This document shows positions 27,981 through 42,618 of a DNA stretch of 64,000 bases, piece by piece. How positions within the stretch are numbered: the stretch's first letter is position 1; each line of letters starts with the position of its first letter. The stretch is from Candidatus Levyibacteriota bacterium. Its GTDB lineage: Bacteria; Patescibacteriota; Microgenomatia; Levybacterales; UBA12049. A program made the position numbers and the translations under genes. Location: NCBI GenBank assembly GCA_016214555.1, contig JACROF010000002.1, positions 136,125-200,124 of the forward strand. The letters run 5' to 3'. The notes beneath the pieces were generated by a model. The model ran no database searches, had not been told where the DNA came from, and worked only from the letters and a program-made list of their open reading frames with translations.

Positions 27981-28510
27981 TTTGTTGCTCCAGTAGAGCT
28001 AGTTTCAGAGATACAGCCAGCTACACTTACACCTGTTGCGTCATAATGTGTATTGATATCTCTTTGACCTGATTTTGATTGAGGTTGATAGCATGCAGTA
28101 ATAGTATTTGAATTTCCGAAAACAACGATCTCTTTAGTAATATTGGTTGCTGTAGTATAGGTTGGTTTCAATTCACCATCTGCAACAAGCGCATTAACAC
28201 AAGTAGATCCAGCACCACCTAACGTATCTGCAGATGCGCTTCCATCATTTCCACTACATCCTGCATAGCCGCCACCAGCATTTGCTGTATCAGCCCAAGG
28301 CATACCATTGTGGGTAGTGAAATAGCGAAGATTTGCATTGAGGTACTCGACCATACTATTTTTAACATTTGAATCCTGTGCTTTTTTTAGTTGCTCAAAA
28401 GGATCAATTGTTGCGATAAGTGCAGTTGCGAGGATACCTAAAATTCCGATAACAACGAGAAGTTCAATGAGTGTAAAACCTTTTTGTAATGTTTTTCGAG
28501 CAGTCGTCAT
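27956..28510 (-). CDS. type IV prepilin
   Basis: MTTARKTLQKG|FTLIELLVVIGILGILA. Confidence 0.75.
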   Translation of the reverse strand: MTTARKTLQKGFTLIELLVVIGILGILATALIATIDPFEQLKKAQDSNVKNSMVEYLNANLRYFTTHNGMPWADTANAGGGYAGCSGNDGSASADTLGGAGSTCVNALVADGELKPTYTTATNITKEIVVFGNSNTITACYQPQSKSGQRDINTHYDATGVSVAGCISETSSTGATNCYYCAQL

Positions 28511-28599
28511 ATTTGTTCTCTAAATCAATTATTGGCAGGAAAGAAAATGTTTGTCAAGTACTAAAAATAACAATTTTTGAAGCCAAAATAAAATTGCTA

Positions 28600-29802
28600 T
28601 CACTGAATTTGCGAAATTAAATTATAAATTGGCGTAATAACAGAAATTACCAAAAATCCAACGCCAAGTGCTAAAATAATCATAATAAATGGTTCAAGAG
28701 CTGTTGTTAACGCTTTGACTGTCTGCTCAACCTCTCGTTCGAAATATTCGGAAACCCTAGTGAGTGAATCATCAAGCTTACCAGTCTGTTCACCAATTTT
28801 TGTCATCTCTACAATAATAGGAGGAAAGAGCGGCTCTGCAAGCATCGCGTCTCCAATAGTTACTACTTTTTCGACTTTTTTTCCCACTTCCTTGATGGCG
28901 TTTCGATAATAAATGTTTCCTACAACATCAGCGCTCTGGTTAAGAGATTCAACTACCAACGATCCTGTACCAACCAAGAGGCCAAATGTCCTTCCAAATT
29001 CGACCATAATAGATTGTGTTGCTAACTTTCCAAAAATTGGCATCCTGAGAATAAGTGCGTCAATTATTTTCATACCACGAGGCGTTTTCTTCCACTTTCG
29101 GAAGTAATAAACAAAAAAGATGACTCCACCAAGAACAAAAGGCCAAAAATTAATTGTTGCATTTGATAATCCGATGACAATCTGCGTAGGCAAAGGGAGA
29201 GGAATATCGAGATTTTCATAGAGTACGGTTAGCTGAGGCACTACAAAAATCATCATAATAGTCATAACAGCGACCATTAAAATAATAACAATAATAGGAT
29301 ACATGAGTGCGGACTTGATCATACCTTTTAATTTTTGTTGTTTTTCCAAGTTGTCAGCAAGCCTTAGGAGAATTTTGTCCAATAACCCAGCTGACTCTGC
29401 TGCTTGGATTAAAGAAACATAAATCGGTGAAAAAACCTGAGGGTATTTCGCAATAGCAAGGGAGAAAGATTTTCCTTCCTCAATGCTGGCAATAAGACCG
29501 TTAACTACCTCAGCCATTGCAGGGTTTTGGACTTGACCTCTTAAAATTTGCAGTGCCTGCATAAGTGTCAAGCCTGAGCTGAGCATTGATGAGAGCTGCC
29601 TAGTAAAAAAAACGAGGTCAGTTGAGGCTGATTTGCGAATAAAGAGTGACTTGAGAGAACGGGAGGGATTATATTCCTTCAAGGTAATAGGGAACAAATC
29701 TTGCTTTCGCAAAAAAACAGCCGCCTCCTGTTGATCTTTTGCCTCAACAAGTCCTCTGACGGCTTTTCCTTGATCATTCACGGCTTTATAAACAATTTTC
29801 AT
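28600..29802 (-). CDS. pilC: type IV pilus platform protein PilC (GspF family)
   Basis: Two GspF repeats and three TM segments. Confidence 0.8.
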   Translation of the reverse strand: MKIVYKAVNDQGKAVRGLVEAKDQQEAAVFLRKQDLFPITLKEYNPSRSLKSLFIRKSASTDLVFFTRQLSSMLSSGLTLMQALQILRGQVQNPAMAEVVNGLIASIEEGKSFSLAIAKYPQVFSPIYVSLIQAAESAGLLDKILLRLADNLEKQQKLKGMIKSALMYPIIVIILMVAVMTIMMIFVVPQLTVLYENLDIPLPLPTQIVIGLSNATINFWPFVLGGVIFFVYYFRKWKKTPRGMKIIDALILRMPIFGKLATQSIMVEFGRTFGLLVGTGSLVVESLNQSADVVGNIYYRNAIKEVGKKVEKVVTIGDAMLAEPLFPPIIVEMTKIGEQTGKLDDSLTRVSEYFEREVEQTVKALTTALEPFIMIILALGVGFLVISVITPIYNLISQIQ

Positions 29803-29804
29803 TC

Positions 29805-30872
29805 TTATCCAACCAATCTAGCTAATTCGTCAGGATGATTGGCAAAGCCTTTTGCAACTTCAAGGCTAACTTGTCCGGAACGAACAAGAACAGTCAGTGA
29901 CTCCTCAAGAGTTACCATGCCTGCATCTTTTGAGGTTTGGATTGCTGAATCAATGAGATGAGTTTTTCCGTCTCTGATATTACTTGAGACTGCAGAACTT
30001 CCCAAAAGTATCTCAACAGCTAGCACCCTCCCTCCAGTAATGCGTGGAATAAGTCTCTGAGATATAATCCCACGAAGCGTTGCGGCCAACTGCACTCTAA
30101 TCTGAGATCTTTGATGGTCGGGAAAAGCATCGACAATTCTATCGATAGTCTGAGCTGCTGAGTTGGTATGAAGAGTGGCAAATACTAAATGACCTGTTTC
30201 GGCGATGGTAAGTGCTGCCTGCATCGTCTCAGGATCGCGCATCTCACCAACCAACACAACGTCTGGATCTTCTCGAAGAGCTGATTTAAGTGCCATTGAC
30301 CACGAATGCGTATCACTTCCCATTTCGCGCTGTGACATAATACTATTTCCTCTTGGATATATATACTCAATAGGATCTTCAATCGTTAAAATATGCGCAG
30401 ATTTAGTAAGGTTGATTTCGTTCATAATCGCCGCAAGAGTTGTTGACTTTCCATGACCAGTTGGGCCTGTGACCAGCACAAAACCCTGACGCATATTAAC
30501 GAAATCATGACAAGCTTTTGGCAATTGCAGTTGATCAATAGTCTTAATAACAGGAGGTAGATAACGAAAGGCAGCAGCCAAGTGTCCTCTCTGAAAATAT
30601 GCATTAATACGAAATCTCCCTGAGTCATTCTGAGTCGTTTCACCAAGTCCAAAAGAAAAATCGATCTCTTTATTCGCAAGTAGCAGTTCCTTCTGTTCAG
30701 GTGTCATGAGTGAGTATACGAGCTCTTCAATAATTTCTTTAGTCAAGCTTGGATAACTTGTCAAATACCTCAATGACCCATCGATTCGAAGCGCAGGAGG
30801 AGTTCCAACAAGCAAATGCAGATCAGACGCATTATTTTTAATTGTTAATGATAATAATTCTTGAATTACCAT
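29805..30872 (-). CDS. pilT: twitching motility ATPase PilT
   Basis: Walker A GPTGHGKST plus Asp and His boxes. The ATG at 30872 directly follows the pilB stop. Confidence 0.85.
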   Translation of the reverse strand: MVIQELLSLTIKNNASDLHLLVGTPPALRIDGSLRYLTSYPSLTKEIIEELVYSLMTPEQKELLLANKEIDFSFGLGETTQNDSGRFRINAYFQRGHLAAAFRYLPPVIKTIDQLQLPKACHDFVNMRQGFVLVTGPTGHGKSTTLAAIMNEINLTKSAHILTIEDPIEYIYPRGNSIMSQREMGSDTHSWSMALKSALREDPDVVLVGEMRDPETMQAALTIAETGHLVFATLHTNSAAQTIDRIVDAFPDHQRSQIRVQLAATLRGIISQRLIPRITGGRVLAVEILLGSSAVSSNIRDGKTHLIDSAIQTSKDAGMVTLEESLTVLVRSGQVSLEVAKGFANHPDELARLVG

Positions 30873-30873
30873 A

Positions 30874-32712
30874 TTATTCCTTTGCAACGCGTAGAACTTC
30901 TTCTACACTTGAGACTCCCTTGAGCACTTTGAGATAACCATCCTGCATCATAGTCGTCATGCCCTCAGCTATTGCTTCTTTTTCTATACTTGCGCTGTCG
31001 GGATGGGCTAAAATGAGCTGTCCTATTTTTTCTGTCACTGGTAGCACCTCATAAATACCAACTCTTCCTTTATATCCTGATCCGCCGCAATCATTACAAC
31101 CTTTGCCTCGATAAAATCTCACATCAGCATCGTTGTAGGTATACAACCTGCCCAAAACCTGTTTTACTGTCTGCAAAACCTGAGGAGCGGGAGCATATGA
31201 CTCTTTACACGTTGGGCAAATTTTTCTCAAAATTCTTTGACCCACAATTGCTGTAATAGTCGACGCAAGGAGAAATGACTCTGCACCAAGATCAATAAGA
31301 CGAGGAAGCGCACCTGAGGCGGTTTGTGTGTGAAGGGTTGAAAAAACCAAATGGCCAGTGAGCGCTGCCTGCAATGCAAGATCTGTTGTCTCTTTATCAC
31401 GAATTTCTCCAACTAAAATAATATTTGGGTCTTGACGAAGAAAGGCACGAAGACCCGATGCAAAGGTGAGTCCAACAGCAGGATTGATCTGAACTTGATT
31501 AACTCCTGCAATTTGATACTCGACTGGATCCTCAAGAGACATAATATTTACTTTTGGCGTGTTAAGCTTAGACAAAACAGCATAGAGGGTAGTTGTTTTT
31601 CCACTTCCGGTTGGACCTGTCACCAAAATAATACCGTGTGGCTTAAGAATTGCGTCTTCTAAATGCTTAAGGGCAAGACCTGTAAGTCCTAGCTCTGCAA
31701 GAGTAGGGATTCCTCCTGACTTTCGAAGAAGACGCATTACAATTTTTTCTCCATTTACCGTAGGGAGAATAGAGATACGAAGGTCAACCTCCTCCGTATT
31801 GACTTTAAAATTAAATCTTCCATCCTGTGGGCTTCGATGTTCGTCAATTTTAAGACCAGAAAGAATCTTAATACGTGAAACAAGTGCCTCCTGCACATTT
31901 TTTGGAAGACTCAACTTGTCATATAAAATGCCATCAATTCTGTATCTAACGCGTACACGATCTTCTTGTGGCTCAATATGAATATCAGAAGACCTACTCG
32001 TAACAGCAAATTCAAGAATTGTTGAGACTATTTTCGCAATTGGTGCCTCTTTGATAAGCTGTGCGATTTCTCGACTATCAACAGCTTTCTTTCTATCTGT
32101 GTACTCCTCACTCTCCTTGATGGCTGCGCCAACTTCTCCTACCAATTCCTGTCTATACTGCTGATCGATCGCATTCTGAACTTCGGTAGGGGAGGCAGCA
32201 AATGCCTTCACGCTAAGACCTGTTTTTTGCCTGACAAATTCTATTGCGTCCAAATTAACAGGATTTGCCATTGCGATAGAGAGCGTCTGACCTTGTTCAT
32301 CATAGAAAAAAGGGATGAGAGCAAATCTCTCAACAACTGCCCGAGGTAAAACACTGATAGCTTGAGGAGAAAATGATGTTGTTGCGAGCGAAACATAGGG
32401 AACGCCAAGTATTCGCGCCTTTGCTTCAACAATTTTTGACTCGGGTAGAATTTTTAGTTCAGAGAGAACACTTTCAACGCTTTTCCCAGAAACAGCGCTT
32501 TTCATTTTAATATCAGCTGCTTGTTCTGAACGTATAGCACCATCGACAATAAGAGCATCAAGAAGCGATAAATCCTCTTGATCCAAAAAAGTTGGTGATG
32601 AAGGAGACGGAGACGATGCTTGTTGCACGGGAGATACAGCAGGCTGGGGGACAGCAGCGACAGTCGACTGTTGCGGAGTCGACGAAACGACCGGTTGTTG
32701 TTGATCGGGCAT
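30874..32712 (-). CDS. pilB: type IV pilus assembly ATPase PilB (GspE family)
   Basis: GPTGSGKTTTLYA Walker A, a tetracysteine motif and an N-terminal Pro/Ser-rich region. ATG at 32712 chosen; the longer ORF uses TTG at 32736. Confidence 0.85.
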   Translation of the reverse strand: MPDQQQPVVSSTPQQSTVAAVPQPAVSPVQQASSPSPSSPTFLDQEDLSLLDALIVDGAIRSEQAADIKMKSAVSGKSVESVLSELKILPESKIVEAKARILGVPYVSLATTSFSPQAISVLPRAVVERFALIPFFYDEQGQTLSIAMANPVNLDAIEFVRQKTGLSVKAFAASPTEVQNAIDQQYRQELVGEVGAAIKESEEYTDRKKAVDSREIAQLIKEAPIAKIVSTILEFAVTSRSSDIHIEPQEDRVRVRYRIDGILYDKLSLPKNVQEALVSRIKILSGLKIDEHRSPQDGRFNFKVNTEEVDLRISILPTVNGEKIVMRLLRKSGGIPTLAELGLTGLALKHLEDAILKPHGIILVTGPTGSGKTTTLYAVLSKLNTPKVNIMSLEDPVEYQIAGVNQVQINPAVGLTFASGLRAFLRQDPNIILVGEIRDKETTDLALQAALTGHLVFSTLHTQTASGALPRLIDLGAESFLLASTITAIVGQRILRKICPTCKESYAPAPQVLQTVKQVLGRLYTYNDADVRFYRGKGCNDCGGSGYKGRVGIYEVLPVTEKIGQLILAHPDSASIEKEAIAEGMTTMMQDGYLKVLKGVSSVEEVLRVAKE

Positions 32713-32758
32713 TATTTTTATAGTAGTCAATAGCAATAGAGAGTGTCAAGGAAAATAA

Positions 32759-33451
32759 ATGTCGTATAATGCATCTGTGAATTCATTTATCATAACCGGC
32801 AACAATCTTTTGCTAATGGAAGAAAAAGTGCAGGAAATCTGTCAAAAATACACTATTTCATCTTTTGATATTACTGCAATTAAACCAGATGGCACGTCCC
32901 TTGGTATTGATGATGTTAAAAAGATGCAGACAAAAGCGTACCTAAAACCACTCAAAGGCGACCACAAAGCAATTGTTCTCCATAATGCGGAAAACCTCAC
33001 TATTCCAGCACAAAATGCGATGCTCAAATTACTGGAAGAGCCTCCAGCAAATACTCTTATCTTCCTTTTAACAAATAATGTCTATGACTTATTGCCAACT
33101 ATTATTTCCCGTGTACAGATACTGTCAGTTGCAGCTTCACAGCATGAAATTAGCGATGATGAAAAGAAGGAGATAATAAAAAGATTTCATACATGGCAAA
33201 TGCAAACTATTCCTGATGCGCTTAAAACAGCAGAACAAATGACCAAAGACAAAGAGAAAACCCTCAAAACGCTTGAGGATTCATTAAGGTTGGGAAGTGA
33301 AGAACTACGAAAAGAAATTCTTTCTGAAAAAGAAGGATTTTTAAGCACCATTCTTCCTTTGCTGCAAAAAACATACCTAACCTTAAAAAATACGAACGCA
33401 AACCCACGACTAACGCTTGAAGCTCTTTTTCTCCAAATAATAAACCTATAG
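32759..33451 (+). CDS. DNA polymerase III delta-prime-like protein (short; no N-terminal Walker A)
   Basis: NAMLKLLEEPP and ISRVQIL motifs (clamp-loader boxes VII and SRC-like). Confidence 0.55.
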   Translation: MSYNASVNSFIITGNNLLLMEEKVQEICQKYTISSFDITAIKPDGTSLGIDDVKKMQTKAYLKPLKGDHKAIVLHNAENLTIPAQNAMLKLLEEPPANTLIFLLTNNVYDLLPTIISRVQILSVAASQHEISDDEKKEIIKRFHTWQMQTIPDALKTAEQMTKDKEKTLKTLEDSLRLGSEELRKEILSEKEGFLSTILPLLQKTYLTLKNTNANPRLTLEALFLQIINL

Positions 33452-33551
33452 TTTGTAATTGTTTTTATTTTTTGTTATACTCTCCAAATCGTTTTCACAA
33501 CTGAGCAATCGTTTGTGGAACATTCGATCTTTAAAAGATAAGGAGAAGGCA

Positions 33552-34769
33552 ATGCTTTTAACAAAAAGAGAGCCGGATGAACCGATCATCACTGACATGG
33601 CAGACCTAGATTGGTATGCCAATACTATGAAATACGCATTTATGACACAGGAGCCCGAACTCAAGGGTACGCTTGTGCTTATCGATCGCGATAATAGAAT
33701 ATTTCCAAAGGGTTTCAACGAGAGGTTTCGCCAGCAGCTTAAATTACTGGCGGAGGCTACGCTGTCACCTGAGGCTGAAGCGCACATGCGAGCTACAGCT
33801 GACTACATGCCAGAATGGTTTTATGATTACCTTCGGCATTTCCGGATAAACCCAGACATGATCTATTCCCATCAAGATGGGGATGGCTACATGCATGTAC
33901 AAGTTCATGGCTATCTCTATGACATCGTCTCTTATGAGACGCCAATCATGGCAATTATGTCTGAGCTGGTAAACGATATTGAAGGAACCACGGTCGACCC
34001 GGACTTCGAAGAAAATGTATACCAAAAAGCTCGCAGACTTGCAGACCTCGGGGCCAAATTCGCAGAAATGGACACACGCCGACGGCCCAACAAGCAAGTC
34101 CAACGACTCTCACTCCACGCCATTAAAAATGGCTCGGGAGGATATCTCAAGGGAACAAGTAACGCAGCACTTGCTGCAGAGCTTGGAATAGCCCTTATCG
34201 GTACGATGGGACACATTTTTCCACAGGCTCATATGGTCTATGGAATACGCTCAGCCAATCGCATGGCCATGATCAACTGGGACAATGCCTTTCAAGGCAT
34301 TTTGGGCACGATGATCGTTGACACGTTCACAACCCCAAAATTTTTGGAAGACTTCACTCCTCACTTCGCGAACCTTTTTAGAGGGACCCGAGAGGACTCA
34401 GGGTCATCCCTCCAGCACATTGACTGGATGGTGAATCACTATCGCTCGATGAACATCGATCCGCTGACCAAAGAAGTCACTTTCACAAACTCGCTTAACG
34501 ATGTCAAGGTTGCCAGCATCAAGGCATATGACGTCGAAAGCAAACTGAGGGACTACTACGGCATCGGCGGTTGGTTCTCCGCAGGTCTTGGCCTTATCAA
34601 GCTCAACATTGTGATGAAGCTTTGGGACGTAACTCGTCCTCAAGAACCCAATCGCAAAATCTATGTTGTTAAGATTCCCAACGAGATTGGTAAACAATCA
34701 GGGGATCCTCGGGCAATCGAAGCTGGGCTCTATGAGCTTGGTATCGAACGCGACTCCTTGTCAATTTGA
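33552..34769 (+). CDS. pncB: nicotinate phosphoribosyltransferase
   Basis: Start at the ATG at 33552 with an AAGGAGAAGG SD. Block-wise similarity to E. coli PncB: FRINPD...ETPIMAIMSELV, EMDTRRR, GTSN...GTMGHIF, GIGG...KLNIVMKL. GC is raised. Confidence 0.8.
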   Translation: MLLTKREPDEPIITDMADLDWYANTMKYAFMTQEPELKGTLVLIDRDNRIFPKGFNERFRQQLKLLAEATLSPEAEAHMRATADYMPEWFYDYLRHFRINPDMIYSHQDGDGYMHVQVHGYLYDIVSYETPIMAIMSELVNDIEGTTVDPDFEENVYQKARRLADLGAKFAEMDTRRRPNKQVQRLSLHAIKNGSGGYLKGTSNAALAAELGIALIGTMGHIFPQAHMVYGIRSANRMAMINWDNAFQGILGTMIVDTFTTPKFLEDFTPHFANLFRGTREDSGSSLQHIDWMVNHYRSMNIDPLTKEVTFTNSLNDVKVASIKAYDVESKLRDYYGIGGWFSAGLGLIKLNIVMKLWDVTRPQEPNRKIYVVKIPNEIGKQSGDPRAIEAGLYELGIERDSLSI

Positions 34770-34777
34770 TTTTAGTC

Positions 34778-34818
34778 AGGCGGTCCGATGCTACATCGGA
34801 CCGCCTCTTCTTTTTACT
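34778..34818 (+). terminator. rho-independent terminator after pncB
   Basis: 12-bp perfect stem AGGCGGTCCGAT / ATCGGACCGCCT with loop GCTAC, followed by CTTCTTTTTACT. Confidence 0.75.
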
Positions 34819-34881
34819 CCCAACAGGCTCACGTATATTTTTACCTCTTGACATTTTTAAAAATCGGAGTATTCTTAGTGT

Positions 34882-35583
34882 ATGAATAACACTAAGTCAT
34901 TACTCCATGAAGCAATACCAAGAAATCTTGACCAGTTGGACAAACCAGCAGTTTCAGTTCAGGTGCTTATTTTTTCCATCAACAAAGGTAAGTTGGAAAT
35001 AGTCCTTATCAAACGCATGAGGGAACCTTTTAAAGATTACTTCAGTATTCCAGGGGACATCATTACTGTTGAAGAAAGCCTCAATGATGCTGCAAAAAGG
35101 ATTTTATATGAAAAAACAGGTATCAAAAATGTCTACCTTGGACAACTTGAAACATTTGGAGAAGTAAATCGTGATCCAAGGGGAAGAGTCATCGCTGTAG
35201 CGTACTATTCACTTCTTCCTCACAATAGTGTCGATCTTTCCAAAGCTCCCAATGGCCTTCATGCTTCGTGGATTCCTGTTGAAAAATTGTCAAAACTTGC
35301 TTTTGACCACGAAGAGATCATCAAAACAGCTATCAAGCGCATTAAGTCAAAACTACTTTATAGCAATATTGCAGGCACACTTTTACCCGAGTCATTTAGA
35401 CTCTCAGAACTGCAGAAAGCATATGAAATCATTCTTGAGGAAAAAATCGACAAAAGAAACTTTAGAAAAAAAATGCTCTCACTTGATGTGATCGAGTCAA
35501 CAGGCGAGATATACAAATTGGGAAATCATCGACCAGCAATGCTGTACAAGTTTAAGTCCAAAGAATTAATTCACTATGACTAA
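34882..35583 (+). CDS. nrtR: NrtR-like Nudix-related transcriptional regulator (Nudix domain plus C-terminal winged helix)
   Basis: Degenerate Nudix box GDIITVEESLNDAAKRILYEKTGI. C-terminal ~80 aa (FRLSELQKAYEIILEEKIDKRNFRKKMLSL) resemble the NrtR wHTH. Lies adjacent to pncB. Confidence 0.55.
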   Translation: MNNTKSLLHEAIPRNLDQLDKPAVSVQVLIFSINKGKLEIVLIKRMREPFKDYFSIPGDIITVEESLNDAAKRILYEKTGIKNVYLGQLETFGEVNRDPRGRVIAVAYYSLLPHNSVDLSKAPNGLHASWIPVEKLSKLAFDHEEIIKTAIKRIKSKLLYSNIAGTLLPESFRLSELQKAYEIILEEKIDKRNFRKKMLSLDVIESTGEIYKLGNHRPAMLYKFKSKELIHYD

Positions 35584-35740
35584 ATTTTTTAAGAAAAACT
35601 TAGTGTATTTTTTACACTACACAAACAACTATTTTAGATTGCTTTTGAAGCTATCTTATAGTACAATTACTTTTCTTGATTTTGTATTTTCAGGTAAAAA
35701 GATTTCAAGACTTATAAGATACTTCACGCGAAGTGAAAAG

Positions 35741-35776
35741 GCTGGAGCAGTCTCGCGGTAGCGACATTGCTCTGGC
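35741..35776. promoter_or_regulatory. 36-nt imperfect palindrome upstream of the PP2C-kinase operon (candidate operator)
   Basis: GCTGGAGCAGTCTCGC-GGTA-GCGACATTGCTCTGGC, with 12/16 arm complementarity. Sits in a 290-nt leader, about 100 nt upstream of the ATG at 35875. Confidence 0.3.
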
Positions 35777-35874
35777 TTTTGTGTGCAACACGCGTTGCCC
35801 GCAGTAGCCAGCTCTTTAACAAAACAGTTAGACAACATATTATTGCTGTTTGTACTTCACGGAAAGGAAGAACA

Positions 35875-36753
35875 ATGACGCGAACGCTGTTTGAGCTTGC
35901 TGACGGGTCAGTAATTGGAACTCACCACAGACGAAACGGAGAAAACAATCAGGATGCATCAGCCATCTACCAAGATGACATGCTCACCATTGGGATTGTC
36001 TGTGATGGCTGTAGTGATTCCAAATTTTCTGAATCTGGTTCCAGAATTGGTTCCAGACTCATTTTACAAAGCCTAGTTAAACAACTCAAACGATACTATC
36101 AATCAACGATAGATTGGTCTACTCAACCATCTCCTGCAGCGTGGTCAACTGACCGTCGCTTTTGGGATAGGATTGAGCGAGACACAACGTCTTCTCTTCA
36201 TCAGCTAGCACAGCAAATGGGCGAAAGCCTTACTGAACAAATTGCAATGCATTTTCTGTTCACAACTATTGGCTTTATTATCGCTCCAACAGGAGGAGTT
36301 TTCTTCTCATTTGGAGATGGAGTAATTGTGGTAAATGGCGAGGTTTTACAAATCGGGCCATTTCCAGGAAATGCACCACCCTACATCGGGTACCAGCTGG
36401 TCAATTCGAGAATCGGGACTGAAAATCCCGAGCTGCTCAAATTCCAAGTACATCGAGAAATTCCGCTTGCCGACCTGAATACTTTCATGGTTGGTACAGA
36501 TGGTGTTTTAGATCTCAAAAGATCAGCAGAAAGACCCCTTCCGGGTAAAAGTTCCCGTGTTCGTCCACTATCACAGTTTTGGGAGGAGGATCAATATTTT
36601 CTCAATCCTGATATGGCAAATCGTCTTTTACGACTAGCCAATCAGGAAGTACATATTTTTGATCCTGTGACCAGAGCACTGCTCAAGACAGAATTTGGCA
36701 TTTTGCCAGATGACACTACTTTTATAGTTGGTCGTAGAAGAAAGGAGGGGTAA
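35875..36753 (+). CDS. PP2C-family (PPM) serine/threonine phosphatase
   Basis: Metal-binding Asp motifs: GTHHRRNGENNQDA, VCDGCSDS, and a C-terminal GTDGV. Start at 35875 with a GGAAAGGAAG SD. Confidence 0.6.
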   Translation: MTRTLFELADGSVIGTHHRRNGENNQDASAIYQDDMLTIGIVCDGCSDSKFSESGSRIGSRLILQSLVKQLKRYYQSTIDWSTQPSPAAWSTDRRFWDRIERDTTSSLHQLAQQMGESLTEQIAMHFLFTTIGFIIAPTGGVFFSFGDGVIVVNGEVLQIGPFPGNAPPYIGYQLVNSRIGTENPELLKFQVHREIPLADLNTFMVGTDGVLDLKRSAERPLPGKSSRVRPLSQFWEEDQYFLNPDMANRLLRLANQEVHIFDPVTRALLKTEFGILPDDTTFIVGRRRKEG

Positions 36754-38661
36754 ATGAGAGTCAACATTGACGGGAAAGCTATATCGCTTAATCCCTCCCA
36801 GTCTATTGGACAGGGCGGAGAAGCGGATGTATACCTTGATAGCAATCGTGCCATTAAGATCTTCAAGCCTCCTACTCATAAAGACTTTGATGGTTTGCCT
36901 CAAGCCCAAAAAAAGGCGGCTGAACGGTTAGTCAGGATGCAAACAAAGCTTGCTGACTTCCCCTCAGGACTTCCATCAAAAGTAGTGACACCTCAGTCAA
37001 TAGTCACTGACACATCGGGCAATAAAATCATCGGTTATACGATGGCTTTCATGCCAGACACCGAGGTTTTGCTGCGATACGCTGAAAAAGGCTTTCGCAT
37101 TCCGGGTATTCCCCAACAGACAGTGGTGGATATCTTTCGGGATATGCACCCAACCGTGTTGGGTATTCACCGACAACAGGTGGTAATTGGCGACTTTAAT
37201 GACCTAAATGTGCTGGTAAAAGGCACTGATGGGTTTTTTATTGACGTCGATAGCTTTCAGTTTGGGAAGTATCCCTGTCTTGCTTACACTCAGCGTTTTG
37301 GTGATCCGCTTCTCATGCGGGAAACCACAATAGCTGAGAGAAAAGAAAAGATGGGGTATTTCACTCTTGCAAAACCCCACAATGAACTCTCTGACTGGTA
37401 TGCATTTTCCATTATGCTGATGCAAAGCCTTTTGTTCGTTGACCCTTATGGAGGAGTATACATTCCAAAAACTCCTGCAGATCAGTTCACCGATCCTGAA
37501 AGGCTCATGCATCGCATAACGGTTTTTCATCCTCAGGTTCGCTATCCAAAACCAGCGATTCCCTTAGGAGTGCTCCCTGATCCGCTACTAGACATGTTCC
37601 AGCGAATCTTTGAGAAAGATCACAGAGGGATTTTCCCTTTAAGTCTTCTTGAAGAAATGCACTGGACAACATGCACCAAGTGCGGCGCAGAGCACGCACG
37701 ACCAGTCTGTCCTGAATGCTCTCACGCAGCACCTGCTGCTGTAAAAGCAGTAGTTACCATTCGAGGAAACGTGATAGCAACAAGAATGTTTCAGACAACA
37801 GGCCACATCGTGTTTGCCTCCTCACAAGGAGGAAAACTTGTATGGCTTTACCACGAAAATGGAAGCTATCGAAGAGAAAACAAGGAAGCAGTACTGAAGG
37901 GGTCATTTGATCCGTTCATGCGGTATCGAATCCAGAGCAATCGGACGCTGTTTGGTAAAAACGGACAGCTCATCACGATCGCTCCTGATAAGACGCCGCA
38001 ACGCTTACAAGTTGACTCTTTTGACAAACTTCCGATCTTTGATGCCAATGAAACTACCCGTTACTGGGTAGCAAACGGTCAACTGCTTCGTGACACCACT
38101 GATCTTGGAGTTTTTTCAGAAGGTCTCTCAACAACCATCGGCAATGTCATGGATCACCAGACCTTGTTTTGGGTCGGAAAGACCTTCGGGTTTGGATTCT
38201 ACCGCGTCGGAGAACTTACTGTTGCATTCGTCTTTGATGCAAAGCAACAGGGAATCAATGACTCGGTTAAATTGCGTATCAGCGGACGACTTGTTGATTC
38301 GACATGTGTTTTCTCAAGCACTCACTGCTGGTTTTTTACCAAAACAGTAGAGCAGGGGAGAACCATTAACCGCTGCACGGCAATCAACCGCAACGGCACG
38401 ATCGAAGCAACAATTGAAGTTGACGACGGAGAAGACTCATGGCTTGGAAAAATCAGAGGTAAATGCGCAACAGGTAATGTTCTTTATTCATCAACAGACA
38501 CAGGTATTGTCCGTGTTGAGGTGGATCAAGAACGGATCTTTGTTGCAAAAACATACCCTGACACCGAACCATACGTTTCGGAGGATACCAATCTTTTTGT
38601 AGGACGTGGTTGCATTTATGCAACTACAGATAAGGAGGTGTACGAGCTCAAATTTACCTAA
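36754..38661 (+). CDS. atypical protein kinase-like protein with central Zn-ribbon and C-terminal beta-rich domain
   Basis: Gly-rich loop IGQGGEADVY and AIKIF (VAIK Lys). Catalytic-loop-like HRQQVVIGDFNDLNVLV, an IDVDSF (DFG-equivalent), and a CTKCG...CPECS zinc ribbon. ATG overlaps the PP2C stop (TAAATG). Confidence 0.55.
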   Translation: MRVNIDGKAISLNPSQSIGQGGEADVYLDSNRAIKIFKPPTHKDFDGLPQAQKKAAERLVRMQTKLADFPSGLPSKVVTPQSIVTDTSGNKIIGYTMAFMPDTEVLLRYAEKGFRIPGIPQQTVVDIFRDMHPTVLGIHRQQVVIGDFNDLNVLVKGTDGFFIDVDSFQFGKYPCLAYTQRFGDPLLMRETTIAERKEKMGYFTLAKPHNELSDWYAFSIMLMQSLLFVDPYGGVYIPKTPADQFTDPERLMHRITVFHPQVRYPKPAIPLGVLPDPLLDMFQRIFEKDHRGIFPLSLLEEMHWTTCTKCGAEHARPVCPECSHAAPAAVKAVVTIRGNVIATRMFQTTGHIVFASSQGGKLVWLYHENGSYRRENKEAVLKGSFDPFMRYRIQSNRTLFGKNGQLITIAPDKTPQRLQVDSFDKLPIFDANETTRYWVANGQLLRDTTDLGVFSEGLSTTIGNVMDHQTLFWVGKTFGFGFYRVGELTVAFVFDAKQQGINDSVKLRISGRLVDSTCVFSSTHCWFFTKTVEQGRTINRCTAINRNGTIEATIEVDDGEDSWLGKIRGKCATGNVLYSSTDTGIVRVEVDQERIFVAKTYPDTEPYVSEDTNLFVGRGCIYATTDKEVYELKFT

Positions 38662-38712
38662 ATCGTGAGGCGCTTTGCCTTTCGATCGAGAAAGAAAAAG
38701 GAGTCAACTTCC

Positions 38713-39822
38713 ATGTCCGGATACGTTCGACCATTAACGCTTCCGCCGCACTACGATCCTAAGAATTGCTACCTCGCTGACTACTCCCATCCCGATACGC
38801 GAGTGTTGATGGATGCGGCACTTGTCTGGCGAGGCCAAAACGGGTTAACACCCGTTGGCAACGACGAAGTGATCATCAATGTGACGGCAATCGACAACCA
38901 ACGCGACTTCGTCTTTCCGCCACCTTACGGCACACTCTTTGTGGGTGGCCGATCAGGCACTGGCGCGATGGACGATCAAGCCCGTGCTATGGCGTTCATG
39001 TACAAGTACATGGGCATCATCACAGAGATCAACAACACGCTTGACACCCATGTCGTGTTCCAAGTCTTCTTTGGATGTGCCCATCTAAATAAGGATGGCA
39101 AAAATCCTGCACCCTACACGCAGATCTCGGCTGACGAGTATCGACGGGGTGACTACCGACCAAATCCAGAAATGGCGGCGCAACTAGGCGTTGATCCGGT
39201 CTGGCTGCAAAAGCAGTTTATCTACTACTGCGAGCAGCTGGAAAGTACGGGACGCTACAAGCTGACTATCTGGCCCGATCACTGCCTTCTCGGAACGCCC
39301 GGTCATCAACTGACTGGTGTCATGAACGAGATGCGCATGTTCCACGCATGGGCACGCGGCGCCAATAACAGGCTTGAGGTCAAGGGTGGAAACCCTCTGA
39401 CCGAACACTACTCGGTCTTCAAACCAGAAGTGATGACGACCTGGGACGGTCAAGCAATTCCGGGTGCTCAGAAAAACGTCGAATTTCTTCGACGTCTCAT
39501 GGGTCTTTCCGGACAGCATGCACGCAAAAACAAACGGGTCATCAACATCTTGTGGGGACAAGCACTATCACACTGCGTGGCTTGGGCGATCGACGATTTC
39601 CTCGTGGAGATCAACGCTCAAGACCCAAGTCTTCTGAAGACAGTCTACATCCTTGAAGACTGCTCTTCGCCTGTTTGCGTACCCAACCCTGACGTTCCCG
39701 GAGCCTTCTATGTGGACTTCACACCCGAAGGCCAGGCGGCTCTGGATCGATTCCGCAATGCTGGAATGAACGTCGTGAAATCAACCGACCCAATCGAGAG
39801 CTGGCCAAACATCCAGCTCTAG
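38713..39822 (+). CDS. isochorismatase-family cysteine hydrolase (long form; possibly nicotinamidase-like)
   Basis: VTAIDNQRDFVFPP (isochorismatase D motif) and GQALSHCVAWAIDD (catalytic Cys region). Start at 38713 with an AAGGAG SD. 369 aa, against ~200 aa for canonical PncA. Confidence 0.45.
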   Translation: MSGYVRPLTLPPHYDPKNCYLADYSHPDTRVLMDAALVWRGQNGLTPVGNDEVIINVTAIDNQRDFVFPPPYGTLFVGGRSGTGAMDDQARAMAFMYKYMGIITEINNTLDTHVVFQVFFGCAHLNKDGKNPAPYTQISADEYRRGDYRPNPEMAAQLGVDPVWLQKQFIYYCEQLESTGRYKLTIWPDHCLLGTPGHQLTGVMNEMRMFHAWARGANNRLEVKGGNPLTEHYSVFKPEVMTTWDGQAIPGAQKNVEFLRRLMGLSGQHARKNKRVINILWGQALSHCVAWAIDDFLVEINAQDPSLLKTVYILEDCSSPVCVPNPDVPGAFYVDFTPEGQAALDRFRNAGMNVVKSTDPIESWPNIQL

Positions 39823-39837
39823 CAGAAGGAAACAAAA

Positions 39838-40635
39838 ATGCAATCACAAACAGCAAGCCTCGACGATCTTTTTCAGAGTGCGGTCTCGCAGGGGAGTATC
39901 TCCCCTGCTACGCTTCAAAGCCTCAACATTCAAGACGTTGGGCAAATGATCCAAGGTTGCCTTGGTATCGCAGTCGACGCTGTCACTGCTAGCAAGGTTT
40001 TCCTGGTATCTCTTCTGGTTGATGACTCGTCGTCAATTCGTTTTGCCGGCAATACGCAGGCGATGCGAGACGGCGTCAACTCTGTCCTTGATGCTCTGAA
40101 TGCCGTCAAAAACAAGGACGGAATCCTGGTTTCCTGTCGCTACTTGAACGGGACGGTTCTTTATCCATTTGTCCCGCTCGATCAGGCTATCCGACTTACC
40201 AGCAGCAACTATGATCCATACGGAGGAACTCCTCTGTACGATCAGACTGCTGTACTGGCGGGATCGGTGATCGCTAAAGCACAGGAGTTCATGCTCAACG
40301 GTGTTCCGGTGACATCATCTAGCCTCGTTGTGACCGACGGTCACGATGAAGGTTCGGTGAATTTTCGCCGACCAGAAGCAGTCGAGCCAGTAATCCGAGA
40401 TCTCCTGGTGCAGGAAAAACATATCTTCGCAGCCATGGGAATCGACGATGGTGGCACTACCAACTTCGCGGATATCTTCCGACGGATGGGCTTTCGTGAC
40501 GAATGGGTCATGACCCCATCCAAGTCGGGTCAGGAAATCCGACGGTGCTTCAACATGTTTTCGCAGTCAACAGCGAGCGCTAGTCAAAACGCGACTAGCT
40601 TTTCGCAGACCGCGCAGGCAGGGTTGAACCCGTAA
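39838..40635 (+). CDS. von Willebrand factor type A (vWA) domain protein (TerY-like)
   Basis: MIDAS motifs DDSSSI (DxSxS), GGTPLYD (Thr) and VVTDGHDEG (Asp). AGAAGGAAAC SD. Confidence 0.6.
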   Translation: MQSQTASLDDLFQSAVSQGSISPATLQSLNIQDVGQMIQGCLGIAVDAVTASKVFLVSLLVDDSSSIRFAGNTQAMRDGVNSVLDALNAVKNKDGILVSCRYLNGTVLYPFVPLDQAIRLTSSNYDPYGGTPLYDQTAVLAGSVIAKAQEFMLNGVPVTSSSLVVTDGHDEGSVNFRRPEAVEPVIRDLLVQEKHIFAAMGIDDGGTTNFADIFRRMGFRDEWVMTPSKSGQEIRRCFNMFSQSTASASQNATSFSQTAQAGLNP

Positions 40636-40671
40636 CGTTGTCAACTGTTTTACCTCAAATACGAGGTTCTC

Positions 40672-40697
40672 GGTGGGGCGTCGAAAGACGCCCCACC
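40672..40697. other. GC-rich perfect hairpin (11-bp stem, GAAA loop) at the right edge of the high-GC block
   Basis: GGTGGGGCGTC-GAAA-GACGCCCCACC. No flanking U-tract on either strand. Confidence 0.6.
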
Positions 40698-40810
40698 AAC
40701 TCACACTCTTCATATCTACTTCTTTTTTAAACAATTCCCATACACTCAAAATTCCATATTCGTCCATCTGTTGAAAAGCGTGAAAATTACTGTTATACTG
40801 GGTCGTACTC

Positions 40811-42618
<1,808 letters not shown>

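What the first reader, a model, noticed from the sequence alone, without database searches (positions are those of the whole stretch)
33552..35583. NAD salvage pair pncB + NrtR-like Nudix regulator inside the acquired block, with a possible PncA-like hydrolase downstream
The 33552..34769 product aligns block-by-block with E. coli nicotinate phosphoribosyltransferase. The next gene has a degenerate Nudix box plus a C-terminal winged-helix-like tail, the NrtR architecture. NrtR is known to repress pncA/pncB regulons in response to ADP-ribose. The isochorismatase-family gene at 38713..39822 could supply nicotinamidase (PncA) activity and complete a Preiss-Handler salvage module, but it is about twice the canonical length. 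Co-location with a kinase/phosphatase/vWA triad is unusual. It may connect NAD(+) homeostasis to that system, since NAD depletion is a common anti-phage effector strategy. That link is speculative.
Basis: partly seen in the sequence, partly recalled or inferred. Interest (0 to 1): 0.6.

Follow-up and report, generated by a model that had tools for sequence, protein, structure and literature searches.

The report
NrtR-controlled nicotinamidase operon with kinase switch
The window carries a real NAD-recycling gene set (pncB, the regulator NrtR and an unusually long nicotinamidase), and the nicotinamidase sits inside a phosphatase–kinase–vWA operon that carries NrtR binding sites and recurs in many bacterial phyla, which suggests an undescribed layer of control over NAD salvage.

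Summary
33552-34769 encodes a divergent PncB. 34882-35583 encodes an NrtR-family regulator with a degenerate Nudix box and the NrtR winged-helix domain. The 369-aa protein at 38713-39822 has a nicotinamidase fold with an intact Asp61/Lys224/Cys288 triad and a metal site, so both refutation conditions fail.

New here:
- Two 21-bp palindromes, TTAGTGT-N7-ACACTAA, are the only strong sites in the 64 kb. One overlaps the nrtR promoter and start codon. The other heads the leader of the PP2C–kinase–PncA–vWA operon. None precedes pncB.
- The four-gene cassette is not a chance neighbour. It recurs in CPR bacteria, Acidobacteriota, Cyanobacteria and a Deltaproteobacteria MAG.
- About half of the sampled long-PncA loci have the kinase directly upstream.
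- 17 of 27 cassettes carry an NrtR box just upstream of PP2C, roughly 90-fold above the density elsewhere in the same loci.
- Stand-alone long PncAs sit next to pncB.

Most likely, NrtR derepresses the cassette when NAD is being consumed, PncA recycles nicotinamide, and the TerY-P-like triad gates this post-translationally. The gating step is inferred, not shown. An anti-phage role remains possible. I found no paper describing this cassette.

The parts
33552..34769 (+). pncB, nicotinate phosphoribosyltransferase (divergent member)
   Evidence: Pfam NAPRTase and NAPRTase_N. PDB 2im5 at 9.4e-55 over the full length. Below NCBIfam equivalog cut-offs. AAGGAG Shine-Dalgarno 8 nt before the ATG. No NrtR box upstream; best PWM score is 1.4 bits.
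34778..34815 (+). Intrinsic terminator of pncB
   Evidence: Perfect 13-bp stem with 9 G-C pairs and a 3-nt loop, followed by CTTCTTTTT.
34848..34875 (+). Promoter-like site of nrtR (TTGACA-16-TATTCT)
   Evidence: 10 of 12 consensus matches. Consensus match only.
34875..34895 (.). NrtR box 1, TTAGTGTATGAATAACACTAA. It overlaps the end of the -10 hexamer and the nrtR start codon (autoregulation).
   Evidence: Perfect palindrome, 29.1 bits, top site in the window. The same site in the same register is found in L001, L003 and L004, with a shifted site in L002. It fits the published 21-bp GT-N7-AC NrtR core (PMC2330246).
34882..35583 (+). nrtR, Nudix-related transcriptional regulator
   Evidence: PF21906 4.7e-25, PF19368 7.4e-12, PF00293 7.4e-11. 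PDB BtAraR 8.8e-48 and SoNrtR 5e-28. Degenerate Nudix box read from the sequence.
35600..35620 (.). NrtR box 2, TTAGTGTATTTTTTACACTAC. It lies 17 nt after the nrtR stop, at the head of the cassette leader.
   Evidence: One mismatch, 25.5 bits, second-best site in the window; the next best scores 12.5. Conserved in L001. It overlaps a promoter-like -35 hexamer, TTTACA at 35611-35616. Equivalent boxes precede PP2C in 17 of 27 cassettes.
35740..35874 (+). Conserved, structured 5' leader of the cassette
   Evidence: 88 nt are 94% identical to L001, above the flanking coding identity. A 1-nt indel rules out coding. MFE -46.7 kcal/mol, z = -2.88. One compensatory pair. No Rfam match. Seen only in these two genomes.
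35875..36753 (+). PP2C-type protein phosphatase
   Evidence: PF13672 PP2C_2 1.5e-18. It is the first gene of the conserved cassette.
36754..38661 (+). Ser/Thr-kinase-like protein with a Zn ribbon and a family-specific C-terminal domain of about 300 aa
   Evidence: No Pfam hit for this copy. 13 of 26 orthologues match PF00069, best 2.6e-6. Invariant G21-G22-E23-A24, K35, D147, N152, D164/D166 and C307/C310/C319/C322. Weak profile hits to PDB are nearly all protein kinases, plus Nop10 Zn-ribbon chains. The C-terminal domain (residues 335-635) is found in 525 representative clusters, nearly all in the same 600-660 aa architecture.
38713..39822 (+). Long-form nicotinamidase (PncA-like, 369 aa)
   Evidence: Nicotinamidase fold. 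Invariant D61, K224 and C288, plus D111/H113/H190. About 150 extra residues relative to 186-aa PncA. Stand-alone members sit next to pncB.
39838..40635 (+). vWA (MIDAS) domain protein from an unannotated family
   Evidence: No Pfam or PDB sequence hit. Invariant D62-x-S64-x-S66...T131...D167. AlphaFold pLDDT 90.3. The listed Foldseek PDB matches are almost all vWA/MIDAS domains. 1677 clusters, almost all named 'hypothetical'.

Best explanation
This is an NrtR regulon for nicotinamide recycling. Its enzyme is wired to a phosphorylation switch.

Shown by computation:
- NrtR has two operators here. One lies over its own promoter and start codon. The other heads the leader of the operon PP2C - Ser/Thr kinase (Zn ribbon) - long nicotinamidase - vWA.
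- That operon and its NrtR boxes are conserved across phyla.
- The long protein has the nicotinamidase fold, triad and metal site.
- pncB lies next door with its own terminator and no NrtR box.

Inferred:
1. When NAD is cleaved, an NAD-derived signal (ADP-ribose, by analogy with the Shewanella and Synechocystis NrtRs) releases NrtR from both operators.
2. The cassette is then expressed. PncA deamidates the released nicotinamide to nicotinate, and PncB converts that to NaMN for NAD resynthesis.
3. The kinase/PP2C pair and the MIDAS-bearing vWA protein form a TerY-P-like switch. It gates PncA activity or assembly post-translationally. The family-specific C-terminal domain of the kinase is the likely sensor or docking module.
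For: Gene identities: PncB, NrtR; nicotinamidase; vWA; kinase.

Operators:
- Only two strong sites in 64 kb, at 34875 and 35600.
- They match the published 21-bp GT-N7-AC NrtR motif (PMC2330246).
- They are conserved in L001-L004 and L006.

Cassette conservation:
- Window, L001, L064, L081, L082, L085 and L086.
- 36 of 69 metagenome loci have the kinase directly upstream of long PncA, and 38 of 63 have vWA downstream.
- Three of three look-ups that started from the vWA family returned NrtR + PP2C + kinase + long PncA + vWA.

Regulation:
- 17 of 27 cassettes have a box of at least 14 bits within 350 nt upstream of PP2C: 2.64 sites per kb against 0.030 per kb elsewhere.
- Most of the 'elsewhere' sites lie upstream of nrtR itself.
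- Boxes occur even where no nrtR lies in the fetched stretch (L091, L097, L104, L149, L161, L163).

Metabolic reading:
- pncB is adjacent here and in L001, L064, L137 and L154.
- Stand-alone long PncAs lie beside NAPRTase genes.
- An ADP-ribosylglycohydrolase is inserted in the Leptolyngbya cassette.
- NADAR and PARG lie beside the Blastocatellia cassette.
- CPR relatives of this NrtR head pncA-pncB-nadE-nadM operons.
Against: - No experiment. Effector, repression and enzyme activity are all inferred.
- The closest solved relative of the regulator is arabinose-responsive BtAraR. The ligand-contact residues conserved here (R45, R in NRDP, H in FDH) are shared by the ADP-ribose and arabinose binders, so they do not discriminate.
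- Box 2 lies about 255 nt from the PP2C start, and the promoter assignment rests on consensus hexamers only.
- Nothing shows that PncA is the kinase substrate. Cassette and stand-alone long PncAs differ at no conserved Ser or Thr.
- 10 of 27 cassettes lack a detectable box directly upstream of PP2C with this PWM, although three of these have boxes upstream of an adjacent nrtR. The PWM was partly trained on sites from the same loci.
- nadD and nadE are not in the window.
Confidence: 0.6

Rival explanations
1. The PP2C-kinase-PncA-vWA cassette is a TerY-P-like anti-phage or stress-defence module, and nicotinamidase is its effector. ADP-ribose from NAD-cleaving immunity or phage attack derepresses it through NrtR. 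Removing nicotinamide would starve phage NAD-reconstitution pathways or relieve nicotinamide inhibition of NADase effectors.
For: - Triad architecture (vWA with MIDAS, PP2C, kinase with Zn ribbon) matches the published TerY-P description. TerY-P-like modules are reported as stand-alone defence systems (PMC11090510).
- Deviant GC3 of kinase, PncA and vWA suggests horizontal transfer.
- Suggestive neighbours: GmrSD_N and AAA_15 in L168, Uma2 nucleases in L169, and a TIR/SEFIR protein beside a stand-alone long PncA in L116.
- Distant homologues occur in huge phages.
Against: - No PADLOC model matches any of the six proteins at a meaningful E-value.
- The cassette sits in a conserved housekeeping slot (holB...gyrB) in two small CPR genomes.
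- It is repeatedly linked to pncB and other NAD-salvage genes.
- A nicotinamidase cannot itself deplete NAD.
- The evidence from neighbouring genes is anecdotal.
Confidence: 0.2
2. The long 'nicotinamidase' acts on a larger amide substrate, such as NMN, nicotinamide riboside, NAD or a protein-linked amide. Its roughly 150 extra residues reshape the pocket, and the triad controls that different chemistry.
For: - Extra segments: an N-terminal extension of about 55 aa, an insertion of about 57 aa between H113 and H190, and smaller ones elsewhere.
- Pfam PF00857 is recorded for only 4 of the 120 listed homologues.
- The query-normalised TM-score is only 0.47.
Against: - The top structural matches are the nicotinamidases; other isochorismatase-fold amidases (maleamate amidase, NicF, biuret hydrolase, RutB) rank lower.
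- The metal ligands D111, H113 and H190 are invariant in the family; such a metal site is typical of nicotinamidases (own knowledge).
- Stand-alone members are paired with NAPRTase, whose substrate is nicotinate.
Confidence: 0.12
3. The regulator is a sugar-responsive AraR/XylR-type member of the NrtR family, and its sites here have nothing to do with NAD.
For: The best PDB match is BtAraR at 8.8e-48, against SoNrtR at 5e-28. Many 48%-identical relatives are in Sphingobacteriia, and published Bacteroidetes NrtR-family regulators control pentose utilisation (PMC2330246, PMC4666351).
Against: - No pentose genes lie nearby.
- The same box precedes pncA-pncB-nadE-nadM in CPR relatives (L005, L011) and a NAMPT-like gene in L002.
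- Neighbours in other phyla are ADP-ribose enzymes.
Confidence: 0.05

Closest known systems
NrtR regulons of NAD salvage (Rodionov et al. 2008, PMC2330246), e.g. nrtR-#pncA-pncB, nrtR-#prs-nadV
   Same: Nudix-like domain plus wHTH regulator. 21-bp palindromic operators with a GT-N7-AC core. One site on nrtR itself and one between nrtR and the downstream target operon. The targets are nicotinamide-salvage genes.
   Different: The target operon is not just pncA(-pncB). It is PP2C-kinase-PncA-vWA. pncB lies upstream of nrtR without a site. The PncA is a roughly 350-aa long form. The protein scores far below the NCBIfam equivalog cut-off (174 against 400 bits).
TerY-P triad (TerY-like vWA + PP2C + Ser/Thr kinase with Zn ribbon; Anantharaman et al. 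2012, as summarised in PMC11090510)
   Same: The same three domain types, including a perfect MIDAS motif and a Zn ribbon after the kinase domain. Tight operon.
   Different: A metabolic enzyme is inserted between kinase and vWA. The kinase carries an extra C-terminal domain of about 300 aa that is specific to this family. No Pfam vWA or PADLOC match. The operon is controlled by NrtR. There is no link to ter genes or restriction systems here.
Canonical nicotinamidase/pyrazinamidase PncA (M. tuberculosis 3pl1, A. baumannii 2wta, yeast Pnc1 3v8e)
   Same: Isochorismatase-like fold, Asp-Lys-Cys triad and an Asp/His/His metal site. Genomic pairing with pncB.
   Different: About twice as long, with an N-terminal extension and a large insertion between the metal ligands. 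15-18% identity to these three structures. Not detected by PF00857 in this copy.
BtAraR (5bs6), the arabinose-responsive NrtR-family repressor
   Same: Closest solved sequence relative (8.8e-48, aligned over residues 25-227). Similarly degenerate Nudix box.
   Different: The genomic context is NAD salvage, not pentose use. The effector is probably different but untested.

Membership tests
NrtR family | N-terminal Nudix-like domain | tested here: met
   PF00293 7.4e-11, residues 27-148.
NrtR family | C-terminal NrtR-type winged helix-turn-helix | tested here: met
   PF21906 4.7e-25, residues 166-224. Aligned to SoNrtR and BtAraR through the C-terminus.
NrtR family | Impaired Nudix signature GX5EX7REUXEEXGU | tested here: met
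   Reads D-x5-E-x7-R-I-L-Y-E-K-T-G-I in the register of the BtAraR alignment. The signature definition comes from PMC4666351.
NrtR family | 21-bp palindromic operators with a GT-N7-AC core at target genes, conserved in orthologous loci | tested here: met
   Sites at 34875 and 35600. Conserved in L001-L006, L011, L064 and others. Motif definition from PMC2330246.
NrtR family | DNA binding relieved by ADP-ribose or another NAD metabolite | not testable with these tools
   Needs EMSA. The conserved ligand-contact residues do not distinguish ADP-ribose from arabinose.
NrtR family | NCBIfam NF050029 equivalog cut-off (400 bits) | tested here: not met
   174.1 bits. This is a family-level relative, not an equivalog of the curated model.
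Nicotinate phosphoribosyltransferase (PncB) | NAPRTase catalytic and N-terminal domains | tested here: met
   PF04095 1.6e-31 and PF17767 3.1e-18. 2im5 at 9.4e-55. The G-T-x-x-H motif aligns.
Nicotinate phosphoribosyltransferase (PncB) | TIGR01514 / NF003704 curated cut-offs | tested here: not met
   239.8 < 269.55 and 262.2 < 379. Divergent member.
Nicotinamidase (PncA) | Isochorismatase-like fold closest to nicotinamidases | tested here: met
   Model pLDDT 93.7. Foldseek ranks 1-7 and 9-22 are nicotinamidases of canonical length (about 180-216 aa) and rank 8 is the longer Drosophila enzyme; target TM 0.66-0.78 for the canonical-length ones.
Nicotinamidase (PncA) | Asp-Lys-Cys catalytic triad | tested here: met
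   K224 and C288 align with K96 and C138 (hhalign probability 97.3). D61 in IDNQRDF corresponds to D8 in VDVQNDF by motif. All three are invariant in 32 sequences.
Nicotinamidase (PncA) | Asp/His/His metal site | tested here: met
   D111 and H113 (LDTH against KDFH, by motif) and H190 (WPDHC against WPPHC) are invariant.
Nicotinamidase (PncA) | Pfam PF00857 match | tested here: not met
   No hit for the window protein even at E <= 10. PF00857 is recorded for only 4 of the 120 listed homologues.
Nicotinamidase (PncA) | Nicotinamide deamidation activity | not testable with these tools
   Needs an enzyme assay or complementation.
TerY-P triad | vWA protein with a DxSxS...T...D MIDAS motif | tested here: met
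   Invariant D62, S64, S66, T131 and D167. vWA fold.
TerY-P triad | PP2C phosphatase | tested here: met
   PF13672 1.5e-18.
TerY-P triad | Ser/Thr kinase followed by a Zn ribbon | tested here: met
   13 of 26 orthologues hit PF00069. Invariant kinase motifs and four Cys. Profile hits to kinases and to the Nop10 Zn ribbon. The window copy itself has no Pfam hit.
TerY-P triad | Match to models of the TerY-P defence system | tested here: not met
   The PADLOC scan gave only two insignificant hits, PDC-M21C at 0.0025 and MkoA at 0.075. That PADLOC holds TerY-P models is my recollection, not checked.
TerY-P triad | Three contiguous genes without an inserted enzyme | tested here: not met
   PncA lies between kinase and vWA in most cassettes examined; L118 and L123 have a permuted order (nrtR-PncA-vWA-PP2C), and some loci carry extra small ORFs or an inserted ADP-ribosylglycohydrolase.

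The most novel reading that the evidence does not exclude
The nrtR + PP2C-kinase-PncA-vWA unit is a previously unrecognised ADP-ribose-triggered, phosphorylation-gated 'nicotinamide-clearing' module. It acts in virus-host conflict over NAD, for example by denying nicotinamide to phage NAD-reconstitution pathways or by resetting NADase-based immunity. The family-specific C-terminal domain of the kinase would be a new sensor domain.
Probability: 0.15. Interest if true: 0.85.

Novelty: new variant of a known kind. Interest (0 to 1): 0.6.

Why it matters
Control of bacterial NAD salvage is known mainly at the level of transcription (NadR, NiaR, NrtR). A conserved operon that joins the first salvage enzyme to a kinase/phosphatase/vWA triad, under NrtR operators in CPR bacteria, Acidobacteriota, Cyanobacteria and a Deltaproteobacteria MAG, predicts a post-translational layer, or a conflict-related use, that nobody seems to have tested.

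It also gives a concrete biochemical output to a TerY-P-like triad, a module whose mechanism is still hypothetical. And it assigns a context to two unannotated families: the vWA protein (1677 clusters, almost all named 'hypothetical') and the kinase C-terminal domain (525 representative clusters).

Cultured cyanobacterial carriers (Leptolyngbya sp. 'hensonii', Planktothrix FACHB-1355, Spirulina CCY15215) make it testable.

Tried and rejected
- Sequence searches of the 369-aa protein, the kinase and the vWA protein against Pfam, NCBIfam and PDB sequences gave nothing usable. Structure prediction and orthologue-based searches were needed.
- The first hhalign against a single M. tuberculosis PncA mis-aligned the catalytic Lys to R215. 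A small PncA profile corrected this.
- PADLOC gave no defence-system match.
- Rfam found no known RNA in 33300-41000. The only hit was sucC at E = 0.42.
- The conserved leader element was not found outside L001.
- I looked for residues specific to cassette-embedded long PncAs as candidate phospho-sites. Only Q253 differs, and no Ser or Thr does.
- nadD, nadE and a short pncA are absent from the window.
- The Anantharaman 2012 TerY-P paper could not be read by DOI or PMC id. Its content is cited only through PMC11090510.
- Five literature searches found no paper describing a nicotinamidase with vWA, PP2C and kinase. The library is incomplete, so this is not proof of novelty.
- Rejected: the in-frame TTG start at 35767 as the PP2C start. 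A 1-nt indel relative to L001 breaks that frame.
Full report
**What is there.** The region lies in a Candidatus Levybacteria (CPR) contig; the 369-aa protein is 100% identical to an NCBI Levybacteria entry. On the + strand the order is:
- holB (32759-33451)
- pncB (33552-34769)
- a strong intrinsic terminator (34778-34806 plus a T-tract)
- nrtR (34882-35583)
- a 291-nt leader
- PP2C (35875-36753), a 635-aa kinase-like protein (36754-38661), a 369-aa hydrolase (38713-39822) and a 265-aa protein (39838-40635). These four are tightly packed (gaps of 0, 51 and 15 nt).
- gyrB follows.

**PncB.** PncB has both NAPRTase Pfam domains. It aligns end to end with the solved NAPRTase 2im5 at 9.4e-55. It falls below the NCBIfam equivalog cut-offs, so it is a divergent but recognisable PncB.

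**NrtR.** The Nudix protein carries the NrtR winged-helix domain (PF21906, 4.7e-25) and a Nudix domain (7.4e-11). In the register of its alignment to BtAraR, the Nudix signature reads D-x5-E-x7-R-I-L-Y-E-K-T-G-I. The first Gly and two of the three Glu of REUxEE are lost. This is the impaired box described for NrtR and AraR regulators (PMC4666351). The first 'would refute' condition, no HTH, is therefore not met.

**The long hydrolase.**
- It has no Pfam, NCBIfam or PDB sequence hit.
- It has more than 5000 homologues of about 350 aa, many labelled nicotinamidase by NCBI or JGI.
- An AlphaFold model built on 32 homologues is confident (pLDDT 93.7).
- Its best solved matches are the nicotinamidases of A. 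baumannii, yeast, Leishmania, Pyrococcus, Drosophila, S. pneumoniae, M. tuberculosis and B. subtilis. Target-normalised TM-scores are 0.66-0.78 for the enzymes of canonical length and 0.51 for the longer Drosophila enzyme.
- A profile-profile alignment with short PncAs (probability 97.3) places H190, K224 and C288 on M. tuberculosis H71, K96 and C138.
- IDNQRDF and LDTH match VDVQNDF (D8) and KDFH (D49/H51) by motif. All of these residues are invariant in the family.

The second refutation condition, a missing Asp-Lys-Cys triad, is therefore also not met. The extra length comes from an N-terminal extension, an insertion of about 57 residues between the metal ligands, and smaller additions.

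**NrtR operators.** Reading the leaders showed two 21-bp palindromes, TTAGTGT-N7-ACACTAA.
- The first (34875-34895, perfect) spans the end of the nrtR -10-like hexamer and the ATG.
- The second (35600-35620, one mismatch) lies 17 nt after the nrtR stop. It overlaps a -35-like hexamer at the head of the cassette leader.
- With a weight matrix built from 39 related sites, these score 29.1 and 25.5 bits. The next best site in 64 kb scores 12.5. The pncB leader scores 1.4 at best.
- For a random sequence I calculate about 0.01 sites with at most one mismatch in 64 kb.
- The motif fits the published NrtR rule of a 21-bp palindrome with a GT-N7-AC core (PMC2330246).

34819-34881 runs into a site that overlaps the start codon, 35584-35874 holds a site, and 33452-33551 holds none.

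**Orthologous loci.** A scan of species-representative genomes with NrtR gave 80 loci.
- L001, a second Levybacteria-like genome, is fully syntenic from holB to gyrB and has both boxes.
- L002-L004 and L006 keep the two-box arrangement around nrtR but have other downstream genes, for example a NAMPT-like protein.
- The CPR loci L005 and L011 have nrtR followed by short pncA, pncB, nadE and nadM.
- L064, only 44% identical in NrtR, has PP2C-kinase-long PncA-vWA followed by a second PncA paralogue. pncB and nrtR are divergently transcribed next to it. Two perfect boxes lie directly upstream of PP2C and one lies between pncB and nrtR.

**The cassette is a conserved unit.** Contexts of long-PncA homologues showed the same four genes in L081, L082, L085 (Blastocatellia) and L086 (an alternative-code CPR bacterium), usually with NrtR within a few kb. 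A metagenome scan with the PncA alignment gave 80 more loci, with these counts:

| Loci with enough flank | Feature counted | Count |
|---|---|---|
| 69, with at least 600 nt upstream of PncA | kinase directly upstream | 36 |
| 69 | nrtR directly upstream | 9 |
| 63, with at least 600 nt downstream of PncA | vWA downstream | 38 |
| 22 cassettes, with at least 1.2 kb upstream of PP2C | nrtR directly upstream, as in the window | 7 |

I also started from the vWA family instead. All three look-ups returned NrtR + PP2C + kinase + long PncA + vWA. They were a 6.3-Mb genome, Leptolyngbya sp. 'hensonii' and a Deltaproteobacteria MAG.

Seventeen of 27 cassettes have an NrtR box of at least 14 bits within 350 nt upstream of PP2C. 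That is 2.64 sites per kb against 0.030 per kb elsewhere in the same loci, and most of the remaining sites sit upstream of nrtR itself. Boxes precede the cassette even where no nrtR lies in the fetched stretch. The matrix was partly trained on sites from these loci. That inflates the scores but cannot explain where the sites fall.

**The triad.**
- PP2C is clear (PF13672).
- The 265-aa protein has no sequence-level annotation. It has an invariant DxSxS...T...D MIDAS motif and a confident model (pLDDT 90.3). The listed solved matches of that model are almost all vWA/MIDAS domains.
- The 635-aa protein has invariant glycine-loop, Lys, catalytic-loop and Mg-binding Asp motifs, plus four invariant Cys. 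Half of its orthologues hit Pkinase, and its weak PDB profile hits are nearly all protein kinases, plus Nop10 Zn-ribbon chains.
- The kinase C-terminal 300 residues form a domain found in 525 representative clusters, nearly all with this same architecture.

This matches the published description of TerY-P triads: vWA, PP2C and a kinase with a Zn ribbon (PMC11090510). It differs in three ways. An enzyme is inserted, the kinase has an extra domain, and no PADLOC model matches.

**Function.** Stand-alone long PncAs lie next to NAPRTase genes (L103, L105, L157), which supports a true Preiss-Handler role. Further links to NAD and ADP-ribose turnover:
- An ADP-ribosylglycohydrolase is inserted in the Leptolyngbya cassette.
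- NADAR and PARG lie beside the Blastocatellia cassette.
- A short isochorismatase, a NAMPT-like gene and Prs lie beside the alternative-code CPR one.

The most economical model is that NrtR represses nrtR and the cassette. An NAD-derived signal relieves repression, PncA and PncB recycle nicotinamide, and the triad adds post-translational gating. The gating is inferred from conserved gene order only. I found no cassette-specific Ser or Thr in PncA. The effector is also inferred, because the nearest solved relative is the arabinose-responsive BtAraR.

**Composition.** GC3 is raised in pncB (0.53), kinase (0.43), PncA (0.61) and vWA (0.56) against about 0.31 in the neighbours. It is not raised in nrtR or PP2C (both 0.35). 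L001 shows the same rise in overall GC for these genes. Any acquisition therefore predates the split of these two species, and 'acquired block' is only partly apt.

**Novelty.** pncB + NrtR is a textbook regulon, and the long PncA is already named in databases. The conserved NrtR-controlled PP2C-kinase-PncA-vWA cassette did not turn up in five full-text searches. The original TerY-P paper could not be read. I rate this a new variant of known kinds, of moderate to good interest.

Noticed in passing
window 40811-42618 (break near 41937): gyrB is split into two frames. Compared with the syntenic L001 orthologue, the window lacks 136 nt, about 45 codons plus a frameshift, just before the Toprim EGDSAGG motif. 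This is either an assembly artefact or a real lesion in an essential gene.
   Followed up: partly
window 35740-35874: The leader of the cassette has an 88-nt stretch 94% identical to L001, more conserved than the adjacent coding DNA. It folds into two hairpins (z = -2.88, one compensatory pair). There is no Rfam match, and it is absent from other cassette loci. It may be a lineage-specific regulatory RNA.
   Followed up: partly
L064 5372-6439; L137 12244-13149: A second, divergent long-PncA paralogue (33-34% identity) follows the vWA gene and lies next to pncB in two distant cassettes.
   Followed up: no
L169 4381-5196; L085 10236-14909: ADP-ribose-processing genes are embedded in or next to the cassette. 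An ADP-ribosylglycohydrolase lies between PP2C and kinase in Leptolyngbya sp. 'hensonii'. DUF4291, NADAR, Band_7 and a PARG-like gene lie between the cassette and nrtR in a Blastocatellia MAG.
   Followed up: no
L002 8722-12187; L004 9151-14298; L006 8827-10394: In close NrtR relatives, the box downstream of nrtR precedes unusual genes. L002 has a NAMPT-like protein, a radical SAM protein and an unknown. L004 has three unknown ORFs and an adenylosuccinate-synthetase-like gene. L006 has a Band_7/SPFH protein and an unknown. These may be new NrtR regulon members.
   Followed up: partly
L116 11386-12603: A TIR/SEFIR-FGE-sulfatase fusion protein lies about 300 nt downstream of a stand-alone long PncA. 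A potential NAD-consuming domain sits next to the nicotinamide-recycling enzyme.
   Followed up: no
L103 6303-11047; L105 6260-11053: An M42-peptidase fusion protein (711-735 aa), a 508-514-aa NAPRTase and long PncA lie head to tail with overlapping ends, so they look like an operon.
   Followed up: no
phage records LR756511.1, LR745208.1, LR756500.1, MT837596.1: Distant homologues of the long PncA (29-33% identity over 71-86% of the query) occur in three huge uncultured phage genomes of 462-595 kb and in one small contig.
   Followed up: no
window 37756-38658 (kinase residues 335-635): The kinase C-terminal domain has no Pfam or PDB relative. It occurs in 525 representative clusters, almost always at the same position in 600-660-aa proteins. 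It is an uncharacterised domain dedicated to this kinase family.
   Followed up: partly
window 27956-32736 (- strand): By their sequences, the ORFs upstream of holB look like a type IV pilus set: a pilin-like protein, then PilC-like, PilT-like and PilB-like ATPase ORFs (translations only). No family search was run.
   Followed up: no
L086/L087: The cassette also occurs in a bacterium labelled 'gcode 4' by its source, whose genes contain in-frame stop codons under table 11. Standard translation breaks its genes.
   Followed up: no
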